A DNA stretch of 27,123 bases from a virus. Lineage: Duplodnaviria; Heunggongvirae; Uroviricota; Caudoviricetes. Positions 15,001-21,000 of this stretch are shown here, piece after piece. Each line of letters begins with the position of its first letter. Positions within the stretch are counted from its first letter, which is position 1. The position numbers were made by a program. The stretch spans positions 1-27,123 of IMG/VR virus record IMGVR_UViG_2563366879_000003; one strand, given 5' to 3'.

Positions 15001-18000
15001 ATTTTTGATTCTATTCCGGCACCGTCCAGAACTTCAAACGCGTTGAAAATAAAAACAAAAACCCGCCGAAGCGGGTTAAGTGCGGGTGCGTTGAGGATGC
15101 CTGCCACATCAGAGGTGGCGAGGGATTTCTCCCTCGCCGGGTCTCTTACTCCTCAGGTTCGTAAGCTGTGAAGACAGCGACCTCCGTCTGGCCGGTTCGG
15201 ATTCGTACCTCGCAGAGGTCTTTCCTCGTTACCAGTGCCGTCACTATGACGGTTAAACAGATGACGATCAGGGCGATTAACATCGCCTTTTGCTGCTTCA
15301 TAGCCTGCTTCTCCTTGCCTTCCGGCACGTAAGAGGCTAACCTACATGTGTCTAGCATGAAATTGGCCTCAGATTAATGTTAAGCGTCTTGCAGGACGCG
15401 TAATGTTAACTGGGGCTTTTCTCTATCTGCCTTTGGTGTTCATGCCCGAGGCAGATAGCCTCAAGCACCCGCAGCCATTCTACTTAACTACCGTTACCTC
15501 GCCAATATGAAATCAGTCAGAAAGGCGATCCATAAGAACAATAGCAAGACAATAAATCGCCATTACAGCCGTAATAGCCAGCGCACATTTGAGAACCAGC
15601 ACCACAACCTCCTGTATTGGACGTAGACCAGTCCTGATGAATATGAGGCTGTCTCGTCAGTGATTCAATACAACTATTGGGTATAGTTTCTCTGATTTTT
15701 TCTGTGGAAATGGGGCACAACCACTAGTCACCACCAGCACTTCTTTTAATACGCAAAGTCCGACACAAGCTAACCTTCTAGTCCGCTTTGAGCGAGGAAC
15801 GGACGTTGTATAGGTTAGTTAGCGCATCCTCATGAATTGGTGTTCCTTAAGAGATTCATAACGAAGCGTTTGCATCGGCGGTAGTGTTTATAATCGGTAT
15901 GAGCCCCCGAGAGGGCTCACATTTCAAATGTATTACGAGGTTACGCTCAATTAGGAACTTCTCATATGTTTCCGCGATAAATCACATTCAAAGCCCGTCG
16001 AGAGTAAGACATCAGTTCACCTGGCGTGATGGGTTCTGATGATGCCTGAGGGTTCGTGTCATGATGATAGCGACCAGCATAATTGTTAATTTCATTCAAC
16101 TCAGGTACCAGTGATTTAGCGAAGAATAACGGATCGCTCGGTTGTGCTTGTGCAATCTGCGCTACTACCTCTCCAAACAGATTTCCCGGTGAAATTTGCC
16201 CCGGGAAACGACGATGCAGATACCCTTCAAGAAGCGGTCTGATCGCCACCGCCGTATCGTGAAGCTGATGATGAGCACCATCGGCAAATCCGCTCACCAG
16301 ACGATGATTTTTATAGTAGGGAGATTCACATTCCAGATCGATATCTAGTTTATCCAAGCTACTGAAATCACCAGCAATGTTGACAATGCGTAAGGTTGAA
16401 ATGTCCTGCATTTGAGTAGCAGGTATTTTCAGGAACTCATCTCGCATGGTACGGATAAAGAACAGGTCGTGCGCCAAGATGATTACCTGCAAGCTGCGAA
16501 GGTAAATCTGTTTAATGATGGTGATTGTGTGGTTCCTGCGATGATTGTCCAGACTACACATCGGATCATCAATCACTACAATTTTTCTCTCAAGATCAAC
16601 GTCATGAAGCAACACTGAAATAAAGAATGCGAAGGCTAGCGTCCTTTTGTCCCCTTCACTCAATGAGCTCCGGAAACTGGATTCTTCTCCCGTTAGCGAA
16701 ATCTTTTCCCCTCTAAGTTCAATTGCATATTCAGACTTAGGCTCACCGCCGCCAGCATAGTTATAATTAATTTCTGTGATGCGAAAGCTTGCACCAAACT
16801 TCATCAATAAATCATTGATGGAGGATTGATACTTTCCAAGGGTCGAGTCCATGATCGCATTGAGTTCAGCCCTCCGTGTTTCCTTCAGTTCAGAGGCAAC
16901 CACTTCAGCAGTTTTAGCGGTCTGATAATCAGAGATAAAACCTACTATCTCAGGTGATAGACGAAGTCGTGTTGCTTCATACTGGGATAATGTAACCCGC
17001 AGGGTTTCTTCATTTTTGGTTTCAAGCGCCTCTTTATAAGCCTGAATATCCAGATTGGCAGCTTCCACGCCCGAATTAAAGATAGAAAGCTCATCATTGA
17101 TTGCAGTTACTGCATCCGCGATTTCTTTTTCATAGTCGCCTTGGGTCTTTGCAAGCGGATCGTTTTTCTTGGCTTCCGTTAAGCGGTTCAGCGATGATTG
17201 AAGACCTTCCAAACTAGCTTTAATTTTATCTAAATCAGGGAGACTCACGGGCAACTGGAGACAATCTTTCCAATTTTCAGTCACTAAACCAGCCTGCTCA
17301 ATCTTGCTTTCAAGTAAGGCCAGATTGAAAACGCGCATGGCAGTCGCCACAACTTTATCTAGGCCTGTGACCTGATTAAGTAAGGCTTTGTATGCAAGAT
17401 TAAACCGCTCCCGGTAGTACCGGATCAGTTCAATACCCTCCAGGCTTTGCGTACAGAAAGGACAATATTCGTCTTTTATATAATCAAGGCCGTTGCTCGC
17501 CCATCGCTCAAAACCTTCGACATTGATATGGTCAATATGCGCACAGACGACCTCTTCTGCACCCGCACTGAGGCTGTCATAGCTAGCTGCAAGAGTGGAA
17601 AAAAAAGAACTGAAATCAGGAGCGTAAAGAGGTAACGAAAGATAACCCGTACGGTTGCGGATCGTCTCTATTCTTTTGCAGAGATCCAGTTCTGATTCGA
17701 CTAATGCAATTTTTTCCTGAATGTTATCTTCCTGAACAGGCTTTATGTATTTTGCTAGAGTTACATTCCCCCGGGCTACTGTCAGCTTTTCACTTGCCAG
17801 TCTCGTAACTCTCTTGGCCTCCTCTGCCTTGTCTGATGCATCAATAAAAGCAGCCCTCGCGGCTACCGCATCACTGCCCAGCGCAAAACTCAGCAGTCGC
17901 TTTCTATGGCTAGCGCTGATTTCACCACCTGAGTAAACATTACGGTCAACAAAATCTAGGTCGAAGACGTGCACATCTGAATACTTACCATTCCATGTAT

Positions 18001-21000
18001 CGTTATCGTAAATCGCACGATTTCCCTGCGAAAACTGCAGATGAATATTTTGAGGGGTCGTTTCCCCAATCGTTTTCCTGTGCCGTACAATATCTGGATT
18101 TAATTCAGTGTAGGAACGCAGAATTGACGCAAGGGTGGATTTACCACGCCCATTATCAGCATAGACAAAGGTCATTTTTTTAAAGGACATACCAGCAGGA
18201 CGGATATCCTGGAATAAACCCACGCTGGTAATTTGATGAATTCTTTCAAGCATATAAATCCCTTTTTCTTCGCAATTTTTACCGCTGTGGATTGAGATTA
18301 GAACAAGATGAATACTAGTGCACCGTCCTACTAGGAGGATTTTTTCTGGTGTTGACTCCGTTTGGATGCAGTTAACATATCACGGTTCTGCTCCCCACAG
18401 ATTGATGCAGATAGATGTTAGTAACGTCTGCTCCTGGCACAAAGCGGACAACCACGCCAGATCTACCCTGTGCCATGAAAAATGAGAATGTCAATTCAAT
18501 CCTGAACTAATGCTTTTTAATCTAGTAACGTCTAAAATACCTAACATTATCCCTGATAAAATGCCAGTATGCGCTGCATAACTTCACTCATCCGGCACTC
18601 GCGACAGATTATGTTTAGGCGACTGTCGTAGCGACGTATTTCTCCATCAGGTAACGACCAGATAAGGTCCGGATCAACCACAGCTGTTTTCTTCACCTTT
18701 GCCCTCGAGAGTTTTTTGCGGGCGTTTTGCCAGTCCTTACGCGCCTGTTCAGACGGGAATAACCCGTAGCCGGAGTTGTATACATCGCCACTGGCTACCA
18801 GCTCTCTGGCAAGAACGCTCATCAGATATCTAGTCGCACCTGTTTTAGCTTCCAGTTGCCGTAACGTCTCACGACCGCTCTGGCGCACGAGTTCCACCAC
18901 CTGCCCTTTAATTTTTTCCCGCTCTTCTTGTGTAAAAACTTTTGCCACAAGTCCCCCTTAAAATTACCTCATGACCTGAAATCAAAACTTATCCTCTGAA
19001 ACCAGGCGGAATTTCTGTATCCGGTTCAGAAATATGATTAACACAACGCTGTACAGGTGAACGCCCTAGGCGGATGACCAGTTCGTCCCATTTTTCGCGG
19101 AGCTTTGACGGGCTCATGATGTTTTTTACCCAGAATGGATCCCGCTGTACCCGACCAAACATTTCACAAATTTGTCTGTGGCTTCTGCCATCCAGCATCC
19201 GCATTGTGCGCACATCATTGGCCCAGACAGTCCAGTTAGGCTCTTTTGGTCGCATGATCTCGCCATCATCACTGGCGGCCTGTTCGTAGAGACCCACGAT
19301 CCGCCCCCATATCCACTGCGCACACGCCAGATCCTCCTGGCTACCCCACTGGCGTTTTTTCGCACTAAACACAACTGCGCCAGGGTGCCGGATTAAAAAA
19401 TCCTGTTCAGCCGTCTGCGGGTCCGGTTGCGAAGCTTCCGGACGAAAAGTGTTTTTATTCTCTGTAGTAATCTCTGTTGTATTCTCTGTAGGATCATCGG
19501 GCCATTTTGACCCGATGACATTGGGTCGTTTTGAACCAATGGAGCGTTTCATTTTGACCTCTTCCATCGTGTCATTTTGACCTGATGGAGCGGCGCATTT
19601 TGAACCGATGGATTCGCTCAATTTGCCATCATCTAAAAGCTCGCTCCCATAGTTAATCGTGTAGAAATTGGTCATATCGCGCTTTGATTTATTGAGCTTT
19701 TCACAACGCAAAAGCCCCAGCGTTTTCAGACTTGCAAACGCGCGCTTTAACGTTGACTCTGACCAGAATGGGAACTGTTCCAGCCATTGTTCCGTTGTGT
19801 TGTAAATCCAGCGAACACCATCACATTCCATGCCGGAATTGGTATCTCTCAACCAGTAGTGCAGTTGTTGCAAAACAATGGCTTCGTTTAAGCCGATTTT
19901 CATTGCCAGCTGCGTGTTTATAACCAGTGGGCGTTCAGCAAAAAGAAGACTCATAATTCCATCCAGCTTTTTGTTGGTATTGCTGTCGATACGCAAGCTT
20001 GAAAGCAATTGCTTTTTCTATAAGTTCGTCAGTTTCACGATCTACAACGGCAGGATCTGCAAAAAGCAGTCCAGATTCCACCACATCGCCATATTCTTTA
20101 TTTAACCCGGCGATCATGTACGTAATACTTTTTCCATCACTGATCTCACGATACAACCTGAAATCACTAATCCGGATAGCCTCCATAATTGCAGGCACTA
20201 GCGCTGTGAACTTTTCACGCTTATCCCTGGTGTCGATAGCCTTCCAGCGTTCGAATATCTTCACTCGATTAACGCTAAGCGCTCGCTGATCAACCGCGCC
20301 ACCTTCATATGTGACACGCTGAACATCGATGTTCGGGCGCTCTTTCAAAGCCCAGAATGCTTCAGTGATTAATATCGTCGCCTGCTCCTGTGTCATTCCT
20401 GGTCGACATATCCAGGCATCCAGAGCCTCACGAGCCTGTTCAGGAGTGATTTTCATTGTTCAACCGCCCCGCCCGCTTCGTCTTACGATATTCGTCATAA
20501 ACTTTGGGATCATACTGAAGCTCCCCGCCAGATGCCTCCTGTAGACGCATCGCGCGACCTTCAGGAACCAGTATCCCCCAAGCAGCAACACTTGCCAGTC
20601 TCACTCCTGCGGCATTGGCAAGCTTTGTTTTGCTGCCAAAAAAAGTAATTGCGTCAACTTTAAGCATCAAAGCCCCCTCTTGTTAGACTTTTCTAACATT
20701 ATTGTGCGCGGGATACCTAAGTCAAGAAAAATTAGAATTACCTAACTATGGATACAAGAACCCTAGGCCAGCGAGTTCTGGCGCGACGAAAAGAATTACG
20801 CTTAACACAACGAGAAGCTGCGCGCCTCGCTGGAGTTGCTCACGTCACAATTTCACAATGGGAAAGAGACGAAACCCAGCCAGTCGGAAAACGATTGTTT
20901 GCTTTAGCGGATGCTCTGAAGTGCTCACCTACATGGCTAATGTTTGGTGACGAAGACAAGGCACCAGTGCCTGCACAAGAACTTCATGTGGAAACAGAGC

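What the first reader, a model, noticed from the sequence alone, without database searches (positions are those of the whole stretch)
15962..18253. Solitary 763-aa PrrC/RloC-like ABC ATPase in the relBE position: candidate anticodon-nuclease defence module
The ORF has a split ABC ATPase head (Walker A at res 33-40; signature, Walker B, D-loop and H-loop at res 531-595) separated by a roughly 490-residue helical insert containing a CPFC motif, then a 160-residue C-terminal domain with an R-x3-E pair (R672, E676) and downstream histidines. This architecture is that of RloC-type wobble-nucleotide-excising tRNases (Rad50-like ATPase plus zinc hook plus PrrC-like nuclease). It sits between the replication genes and hok/Q, where K-12 Qin carries relBE, with its own AT-rich upstream region (293 bp) and 600 bp of unassigned DNA downstream, i.e. 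a moron-like insertion. The CxxC is not at the midpoint of the insert, so the zinc-hook reading is tentative. An ABC-3C-type conflict-system ATPase is an alternative.
Basis: partly seen in the sequence, partly recalled or inferred. Interest (0 to 1): 0.8.

Follow-up and report, generated by a model that had tools for sequence, protein, structure and literature searches.

The report
RloC-like defence gene in a prophage
A rare cargo gene in a Qin-like E. coli prophage encodes a Rad50-like ATPase fused to a probable RNA-cutting domain; it is a divergent relative of the known RloC anticodon nuclease, so it belongs to an already catalogued family of presumed anti-phage genes and is not a new kind of system.

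The parts
15962..18253 (-). 763-aa ORF: RloC-like ABC ATPase with coiled-coil/CxxC insert and HEPN-like C-terminal domain (RefSeq WP_016233232.1, annotated 'AAA family ATPase')
18134..18160 (-). Walker A / P-loop, residues 32-40 (ADNGRGKST)
   Evidence: N34, G37, K38 and T40 are invariant even in relatives at 24-30% identity
16802..17917 (-). Helical (coiled-coil type) insert splitting the ATPase head, residues ~113-484
   Evidence: AF2 secondary structure; Foldseek matches to SMC/Rad50/LmuB/JetC heads with coiled coils
17453..17503 (-). Putative zinc-hook region, residues 251-267: W251-x3-G255-x8-C264-P-F-C267
   Evidence: CxxC present in 90/90 family representatives; W251, G255, C264 and C267 invariant; aligned to the CPFC of canonical RloC by hhalign; low pLDDT 51-62 over residues 240-280
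16466..16663 (-). C-terminal half of the ATPase head: ABC signature LSEGDK (531-536), Walker B IVVIDDP (558-564), D-loop SLD (567-569), H-loop LAHD (593-596)
   Evidence: (Rad50 alignments)
15977..16345 (-). All-helical C-terminal domain, residues ~637-759: HEPN-like putative RNase
16202..16243 (-). R-x3-E helix motif IRPLLEGYLHRRFP (residues 671-684) with R672 and E676, aligned to R646/E650 of APEC O1 RloC
   Evidence: R672 and E676 100% conserved in 90 representatives; hhalign register; motif definition in PMC2610378
16049..16069 (-). YHHDTNP loop (residues 729-735) with candidate catalytic His H730/H731; N723 occupies the position of the canonical HEPN Arg (N-x6-H)
   Evidence: H731 100% and H730 97% conserved; comparison with YRYINRGSHSD of APEC O1 RloC
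18254..18430 (-). Cassette-specific upstream DNA (~170 bp) with a Shine-Dalgarno-like AAAGGG 7 nt before the ATG; no consensus sigma-70 promoter found
   Evidence: homology to other prophages' DUF977 flank stops at about 18420-18440; sequence; promoter scans
15810..15961 (-). Cassette-specific downstream DNA (~150 bp), from the stop codon to where the conserved hokD/sok flank begins

Best explanation
[not shown]
Confidence: 0.6

Rival explanations
1. Same architecture, different output. The divergent HEPN-like domain (N-x6-HH in place of R-x6-SH) may cleave a different RNA from the tRNA wobble position, such as other tRNAs, mRNA or rRNA. Alternatively it may be a non-catalytic RNA- or ligand-binding module, so the protein would act like an RloC switch without being a wobble-excising anticodon nuclease.
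For: The His loop and the distal half of the domain do not align with canonical RloC or PrrC. The HEPN Arg is replaced by Asn. The E-to-H spacing lies outside the published range. The family-specific invariant motifs ECES..Y..HR and HHDTNP have no counterpart in the APEC O1 family. Anantharaman et al. note that HEPN domains lacking the motif can be non-catalytic (PMC3710099).
Against: R672-x3-E676 is in register with the experimentally essential R/E pair of RloC. Strict conservation of R, E and HH across about 750 clusters argues for a catalytic site. One distant relative has RSHH, with the Ser before His that is typical of RloC.
Confidence: 0.2
2. The gene is a selfish stabilisation (addiction-type) toxin for the prophage or plasmid and not an anti-phage defence. 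It sits in a slot otherwise used by relBE, beside hok/sok, and would penalise loss or damage of the element.
For: It occupies the relBE position next to the hokD/sok module. It occurs on conjugative plasmids beside recombinase genes. One chromosomal copy is inactivated by IS1, which would fit a cost to the host.
Against: No antitoxin-like partner gene is conserved. Neighbours elsewhere are defence systems (type I R-M, Hachiman, PDC-S14) and the P2 defence hotspot. The alternative cargo in the same slot is another defence candidate, PDC-S39.
Confidence: 0.08
3. It is a phage DNA-metabolism protein of the SbcC/Rad50/RecN type that serves prophage replication or recombination, and its C-terminal helical domain is only a protein-interaction module.
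For: The strongest structural and sequence matches of the head are to Rad50 and SMC. The gene lies directly after the replication genes and in the same orientation.
Against: There is no Mre11/SbcD-like nuclease partner in any context. The gene is absent from nearly all related prophages that share both flanks (7 of about 4,000) and is replaced by unrelated cargo. The conserved R/E/HH motifs and the HEPN-like fold also argue against it.
Confidence: 0.04
4. It is the ATPase subunit of a multi-gene conflict system of the ABC-3C type, Lamassu-like or MADS-like, and needs separately encoded effector proteins.
For: There are weaker PADLOC matches to LmuB (2e-14) and mad3 (7.6e-11) over the ATPase and coiled-coil region. 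Foldseek matches Lamassu LmuB and retron Ec83 PtuA.
Against: Neighbours differ in every context examined, and the two adjacent helicases are unrelated to each other. The protein carries its own effector-like domain. The cassette-specific DNA in the window holds only this ORF.
Confidence: 0.03

Closest known systems
RloC (wobble nucleotide-excising anticodon nuclease; G. kaustophilus RloC, A. baylyi RloC, E. coli APEC O1 'RloC' YP_852004/WP_000423308.1)
   Same: Same order of parts: N-terminal ABC head, helical insert with a W-x3-G...C-P-F-C hook placed about 40% of the way along the insert, the second half of the head, then a helical C-terminal domain with R-x3-E followed by a His. Profile-profile probability is 99.9%. 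Both belong to Pfam AAA_13 and PADLOC PDC-S06. Both are solitary cargo of prophages: APEC O1 RloC lies in the P2 gpA-portal slot, as does this family's 46%-identity branch.
   Different: Only 21% identity, and only over the hook and ATPase. The distal nuclease half does not align. E-to-H spacing is 53-54 against 39-41. The loop reads HHDTNP in place of RGSHSD. The canonical R-x6-H arginine is replaced by Asn. The PrrC HMM does not reach this protein's nuclease domain but does reach that of APEC O1 RloC. Activity is untested.
PrrC (E. coli anticodon nuclease of the prr/EcoprrI locus)
   Same: An ABC-type NTPase fused to a C-terminal RNase with an R-x3-E...H triad. The ATPase region matches the PADLOC PrrC HMM at 5e-7. 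The abortive-infection logic is the same.
   Different: PrrC has no coiled-coil/zinc-hook insert, is about 400 aa, and is always embedded in a type Ic R-M operon that silences it (PMC2610378, PMC3458546). This gene has a 370-residue insert and no R-M genes in the window. Its nuclease domain is not matched by the PrrC HMM.
PADLOC phage-defence candidate PDC-S06
   Same: Best model PDLC04895 matches at 7.4e-72 over residues 1-691, and 13 PDC-S06 sub-models match. Distant relatives of this protein and P0027 hit the same model best.
   Different: PDC-S06 is only a candidate class with no described mechanism. The closest model does not cover the last ~70 residues, and the C-terminal domain alone matches no PDC-S06 model.
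Prophage-borne ABC-HEPN proteins of Anantharaman et al. 2013 (the 'PrrC/RloC/APECO1_4465' group)
   Same: An ABC ATPase fused to a C-terminal HEPN domain, found in integrated prophages and predicted to block superinfecting phages independently of R-M systems (PMC3710099).
   Different: That prediction was made for the APECO1_4465 clade. The present clade has a more divergent HEPN-like domain that lacks the R of R-x4-6-H.
Rad50/SbcC and defence SMC-like ATPases (Lamassu LmuB, Wadjet JetC, retron PtuA)
   Same: Head fold and coiled-coil insert. Rad50 and SbcC also have a CxxC zinc hook.
   Different: Those proteins act with separate nuclease or kleisin partners and have no fused HEPN-like domain. 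The insert here is much shorter, and no partner gene is conserved.

Membership tests
RloC | ABC ATPase motifs (Walker A, signature, Walker B/D-loop, H-loop) shared with PrrC/Rad50 | tested here: met
   All motifs present and conserved; Rad50 signature/Walker B alignments; Pfam AAA_13 above cutoff
RloC | Long, largely alpha-helical insert splitting the ATPase head (coiled-coil protrusion) | tested here: met
   AF2 model: helices across residues 113-484 between the head halves; Foldseek matches SMC/Rad50 heads with coiled coils.
RloC | Conserved CxxC zinc-hook motif within the insert | tested here: met
   CPFC 264-267; CxxC in 90/90 representatives; aligned to the CPFC of the APEC O1 RloC family; same relative position as C288/C291 of G. 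kaustophilus RloC
RloC | Zinc binding by the hook and its regulatory effect on the nuclease | not testable with these tools
   Requires metal analysis and C264/C267 mutants
RloC | C-proximal R-x3-E-x36-52-H motif, often with Ser before His (Davidov & Kaufmann 2008) | tested here: inconclusive
   R672-x3-E676 is present, 100% conserved and in register with RloC R646/E650. The His is present and conserved (H730 97%, H731 100%), but the spacing is 53-54, just outside the range, and Tyr/Phe precedes it, not Ser.
RloC | Detectable sequence homology to an accepted RloC over the whole length | tested here: inconclusive
   hhalign gives 99.9%, E 4.5e-34 from residue 1 to 678, but the last ~85 residues do not align and the C-terminal domains alone give E 0.08. 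G. kaustophilus RloC itself could not be retrieved.
RloC | Excision of the tRNA wobble nucleotide by two successive cleavages | not testable with these tools
   Biochemical property; the JGI label 'wobble nucleotide-excising tRNase' on homologues is an automatic COG-type annotation, not evidence
HEPN superfamily (PrrC/RloC-type RNase domain) | Four-helix up-down HEPN fold | tested here: inconclusive
HEPN superfamily (PrrC/RloC-type RNase domain) | R-x4-6-H catalytic motif | tested here: not met
   The position 6 residues before H730 is an invariant Asn (N723) within this subfamily and Asn or Lys in distant relatives. R728 is not conserved (R/Q/K/H). APEC O1 RloC has R683-x6-H690.
PrrC | Embedded in a type Ic R-M (hsdMSR) operon that silences it | tested here: not met
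   No R-M genes in the window or in identical E. coli copies; one 31%-identity relative is linked to a type I R-M operon
PrrC | Compact ~400-aa protein without a coiled-coil insert; nuclease domain matches the PrrC profile | tested here: not met
   763 aa with a 370-residue insert; the PADLOC PrrC HMM matches only residues 475-609 (profile positions 90-227), not the nuclease region
PADLOC PDC-S06 | Significant match to a PDC-S06 HMM as a single-gene system | tested here: met
   PDLC04895 at 7.4e-72, residues 1-691
Pfam AAA_13 (PF13166) | Score above the gathering threshold | tested here: met
   133.1 bits against 36
ABC-3C / multi-gene SMC-like defence systems (Lamassu, MADS) | Conserved operon partners encoding effector or middle components | tested here: not met
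   Neighbours differ in 10 contexts examined; adjacent helicases are unrelated

The most novel reading that the evidence does not exclude
This clade of about 750 clusters is an RloC-like switch (Rad50-type head plus zinc hook) coupled to a re-tooled HEPN active site, R-x3-E plus N-x6-H-H-D in place of R-x3-E plus R-x6-S-H. That site may have a different RNA target or cleavage chemistry from wobble-nucleotide excision. Because the clade is native to E. coli prophages, it could also provide the first direct demonstration in a natural host that an RloC-type protein protects against phage and what activates it.
Probability: 0.2. Interest if true: 0.5.

Novelty: new variant of a known kind. Interest (0 to 1): 0.3.

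Why it matters
The importance is modest. The gene adds a rare defence-type cargo gene (8 of 5,426 complete E. coli genomes) to the variable relBE/hokD slot of Qin-like prophages. It also shows that two RloC-like subfamilies share the P2 gpA-portal hotspot. The RloC field has lacked a natural host with cognate phages for testing whether and how RloC protects against infection, as Klaiman et al. stated explicitly in 2012, and RloC was still 'not tested' in a 2025 survey. An E. coli prophage copy with its native flanks is a convenient entry point, although the APEC O1 RloC offers the same advantage. The divergent active site, with Asn replacing the HEPN Arg, a His-His pair and fixed longer spacing, could help show which residues of ABC-HEPN nucleases set substrate choice.

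Tried and rejected
(1) I tried to retrieve G. kaustophilus RloC by querying the protein database with the OCR text of Supplementary Fig. S1 of PMC2610378. I used the APEC O1 orthologue from the authors' own table instead. (2) The afdb50 fold library was unavailable, so UniProt-labelled structural neighbours could not be listed. (3) Literature searches for 'AAA_13' (the underscore is ignored, so results were irrelevant), PF13166 and WP_016233232 found nothing on this protein. PDC-S06 appears only in survey tables. (4) The supplement of the HEPN paper holds no alignments. (5) The C-terminal domain alone against Pfam, PADLOC, Foldseek-PDB and the canonical RloC C-terminal profile gave no significant match. 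(6) Promoter scanning found no site at 9/12 or better in 18254-18546, and a relaxed scan gave only 7/12 candidates, so I make no promoter claim. (7) I tested whether a helicase is a conserved partner. The helicases upstream of two relatives are unrelated, one being Hachiman HamB and the other type I HsdR, so I rejected the idea. (8) No phage GenBank record matches the gene at the DNA level. (9) The window has no tRNA genes.
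Full report
OBSERVATION. The window contains a 763-codon ORF at 15962-18253 on the minus strand, starting with ATG.
- Walker A, ADNGRGKST, residues 32-40
- CPFC, residues 264-267
- ABC signature, LSEGDK, residues 531-536
- Walker B, IVVIDDP, residues 558-564
- D-loop, SLD, residues 567-569
- H-loop, LAHD, residues 593-596
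- R672-x3-E676, then H680 and H730/H731

The gene lies between a DUF977 gene, which follows the replication genes, and hokD. It has the same orientation as the cro-replication-Q transcription unit of a Qin-like lambdoid prophage integrated beside rspAB/ynfA. K-12 Qin has relB-relE directly upstream of hokD, so the 'relBE position' statement holds.

CORRECTIONS TO THE OBSERVATION. The 600 bp downstream is not free cassette DNA. Rfam finds the sok antitoxin RNA at 15296-15470. The hokD-side flank shared with hundreds of E. coli prophages that lack this gene runs to about 15800. On the other side, homology to the DUF977 flank, which is present in 4,005 genomes, stops about 165-185 bp before the ORF start. 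Only 7 genomes continue through. The cassette is therefore about 15810-18430, roughly 2.6 kb with a single ORF. Its upstream DNA is only mildly AT-rich (GC 0.41 against 0.46), and no consensus sigma-70 promoter was detected. The off-centre CxxC is real: 151 helical residues precede it and 217 follow. The experimentally studied G. kaustophilus RloC has the same asymmetry, with C288/C291 within helical region 121-540.

WHAT THE PROTEIN IS. It passes Pfam AAA_13 (133 bits, cutoff 36). This is the family I recall as holding PrrC. It matches PADLOC's phage-defence candidate PDC-S06 (best model 7.4e-72 over residues 1-691). NCBIfam and PHROGs add nothing specific. PDB sequence searches find only the Rad50/ABC signature region. 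Full-length homologues of about 760 aa are common in Proteobacteria. JGI labels many of them 'wobble nucleotide-excising tRNase', an automatic label that I treated as a lead only.

An AlphaFold2 model built on 39 homologues (mean pLDDT 84) shows these parts:
- an ABC head made from residues 1-112 and 485-636
- a helical insert, residues 113-484, with low confidence only around the CxxC (residues 240-280)
- an all-helical C-terminal domain, residues 637-759

Foldseek matches the model to SMC and Rad50 heads with coiled coils, and to the defence ATPases LmuB, JetC and retron Ec83 PtuA.

TEST AGAINST A GENUINE RloC. The defining features come from Davidov & Kaufmann 2008 (PMC2610378). They are ABC motifs, a coiled-coil insert with a CxxC zinc hook, and a C-proximal R-x3-E-x36-52-H motif. 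In G. kaustophilus RloC the triad is R692/E696/H737, and all three residues are essential.

I could not retrieve that sequence because the OCR was too poor. Their Table S1 lists E. coli APEC O1 YP_852004 (738 aa, flanked by phage replication and capsid genes) as an RloC orthologue. I found a 738-aa protein with these neighbours in the APEC O1 chromosome, in a P2-like prophage between the replication endonuclease and the portal gene. It carries CPFC at 254-257, R646-x3-E650, then x39 to S689-H690. It is a PDC-S06 protein at 1e-254, and its C-terminus matches the nuclease region of the PrrC HMM. PDC-S06 is therefore, in effect, PADLOC's RloC-like class.

This window's protein is only 21% identical to the APEC O1 protein, over the hook and the second half of the ATPase. 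The profile-profile comparison of the two families is decisive for homology: 99.9% probability, E 4.5e-34, 593 aligned columns from the N-terminus to residue ~678. CPFC aligns on CPFC, and AIRPmLEGYL aligns on MRNILEyyF, so R672 corresponds to R646 and E676 to E650.

THE C-TERMINAL DOMAIN. This is where the protein departs from canonical RloC.
- **No profile match on its own.** Residues 601-763 hit nothing in Pfam or PADLOC.
- **PrrC HMM stops short.** It matches only the ATPase part of this protein.
- **C-terminal profiles do not match.** The C-terminal profile of this family against that of the canonical family is not significant (E 0.08), and the His loops do not align.
- **Different His loop.** The His lies 53-54 residues after the Glu, against the published 36-52. 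It is a His-His pair in a YHHDTNP loop, where canonical RloC has RGSHSD.
- **HEPN Arg replaced.** The canonical HEPN Arg six residues before the His (R683-x6-H690 in APEC O1 RloC) is an invariant Asn here.

The domain is nonetheless strongly constrained. An exhaustive profile search found 1,152 cluster representatives, 753 of them at E <= 1e-10. Among full-length hits the domain is always at the C-terminus of a 750-790 aa protein. In 90 full-length representatives, R672 and E676 are 100% conserved, H731 is 100%, H730 is 97%, and the CxxC is present in 90 of 90. Plasmid relatives at 24-30% identity keep the same residues, and one has RSHH.

GENOMIC BEHAVIOUR. The gene is rare in E. coli: 8 of 5,426 complete genomes.
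- Seven copies are identical. One of them is split by IS1.
- One copy is 85% identical and sits in the same slot of a different lambdoid prophage.

The slot is variable. K-12 has relBE-ydfV-flxA there. Strain AST19, with 99%-identical flanks, has a DUF7380/DUF4209 protein that is PADLOC candidate PDC-S39.

Other members of the family sit in these contexts:
- The branch at 46% identity sits in the gpA-portal interval of P2-like prophages, even where gpA is only 37% identical. From my own knowledge this is the tin/old hotspot. It is also the slot that holds APEC O1 RloC.
- A Ketogulonicigenium plasmid relative lies directly downstream of a type I R-M operon: HsdS, PDC-S14, HsdR.
- A Xanthomonas plasmid relative lies next to two N6 DNA methylases.
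- A metagenomic relative lies next to a Hachiman HamB-like helicase.
- An Erwinia conjugative plasmid carries a 94%-identical copy beside a recombinase gene.

No neighbour is shared among these contexts, and the two adjacent helicases are unrelated to each other. This is the behaviour of a self-contained mobile defence or conflict gene.

MECHANISM. By analogy with G. kaustophilus RloC (PMC3458546), the ATPase head and zinc hook would form an internal switch. In that protein, hook mutations activate the nuclease and bypass the need for the DNA-dependent ATPase. Linear DNA ends stimulate activation. The activated nuclease disables tRNA and hence translation.

I propose the same logic here. The head senses DNA ends or foreign DNA during infection, or during induction of the resident prophage. 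ATP turnover and hook rearrangement release the HEPN-like domain, which cleaves tRNA or another essential RNA. What is shown here is the architecture, the homology, the residue conservation and the genomic context. Everything biochemical is inferred. Within the papers I read, phage protection by any RloC has not been demonstrated directly; it is listed as 'not tested' in PMC12322248.

RIVALS.
- **Different RNA target or non-catalytic domain (0.2).** The switch is the same, but the divergent active site has another target or does not cut.
- **Addiction-type stabilisation toxin (0.08).** This is suggested by the relBE/hok neighbourhood and plasmid carriage. The absence of an antitoxin and the defence-rich contexts argue against it.
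- **Phage DNA-metabolism SMC/SbcC-like protein (0.04).** The gene's dispensability in related prophages, the missing nuclease partner and the conserved R/E/HH site argue against it.
- **Subunit of a multi-gene ABC-3C or Lamassu-type system (0.03).** No partner gene is conserved.

NOVELTY AND SCORE. The kind is known in several ways:
- RloC was described in 2008, with an E. coli prophage orthologue in the original table.
- Klaiman et al. 2012 noted that rloC is often the single cargo of integrated phages, transposons or plasmids.
- Anantharaman et al. 2013 predicted that prophage-borne ABC-HEPN proteins act against superinfection.
- PADLOC already flags this protein class as PDC-S06.

What is new is limited. 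This is an uncharacterised, widespread sub-clade with a re-tooled HEPN-like site, plus its occurrence as rare cargo in the relBE/hokD slot of Qin-like prophages. I rate it a new variant of a known kind, with interest 0.3.

Noticed in passing
window 15146-15800 (-): A complete hokD/sok module. The hokD ORF lies at about 15146-15301. Rfam finds sok RNA at 15296-15470 (117 bits). A conserved upstream flank reaching about 15800 is shared with hundreds of E. coli prophages, and a terminator-like hairpin lies at 15578-15559.
   Followed up: partly
L023:3116-4903 (E. coli AST19, same slot as window ~15810-18430): In a prophage with 99%-identical flanks, the slot holds a 595-aa DUF7380/DUF4209 protein on the opposite strand. 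It matches PADLOC candidate PDC-S39 at 3e-102. K-12 has relBE-ydfV-flxA in the slot. The DUF977-hokD interval therefore behaves as a cargo hotspot of Qin-like prophages.
   Followed up: partly
L024:2501-5568 (E. coli J31, NZ_CP053787.1): One of the seven identical E. coli copies is split into two ORFs by an IS1A insertion. This may reflect a fitness cost, or it may be chance.
   Followed up: no
L014:45933-48149 (APEC O1); L008, L019-L022: Two RloC-like subfamilies occupy the same gpA-portal interval of different P2-like prophages. They are the canonical APEC O1 type and the 46%-identity branch of this family, which are only ~21% identical to each other.
   Followed up: partly
L012:1-4903 (Ketogulonicigenium vulgare plasmid 2): A GIY-YIG/DUF4357 protein that matches PADLOC candidate PDC-S14 (3e-111) is embedded between hsdS and hsdR of a type I R-M operon, immediately upstream of the RloC-like gene. 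This looks like a stacked R-M, PDC-S14 and RloC-like island.
   Followed up: no
L003:2127-5940: A 1,106-aa Hachiman HamB-like helicase (8e-45), preceded by an unannotated 166-aa ORF, sits 60 bp upstream of the 66%-identity homologue on the same strand. Downstream in the same locus are a PT-VENN toxin and a CDI immunity gene.
   Followed up: no
window 9001-10500: A GC-rich patch (0.57-0.62, against 0.46 for the window) with strongly negative AT skew (-0.37 to -0.42). It roughly coincides with the lysis genes rzpQ and rrrQ. The cause is unexplained.
   Followed up: no
window 22317-22368 (+), 11609-12001 (-), 11184-11307 (-), 5733-5931 (-): Rfam gathering-level hits typical of Qin: DicF sRNA, the cspA-type thermoregulator upstream of cspB, STnc490 Hfq-binding RNA, and IS009 RNA.
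   Followed up: no
L013:5001-7292 (Erwinia billingiae conjugative plasmid): A 94%-identical copy of the protein sits on an IncF-like conjugative plasmid from Alaskan soil, next to a recombinase gene and an IS6 element. This indicates recent movement between prophage and plasmid backbones across genera.
   Followed up: no
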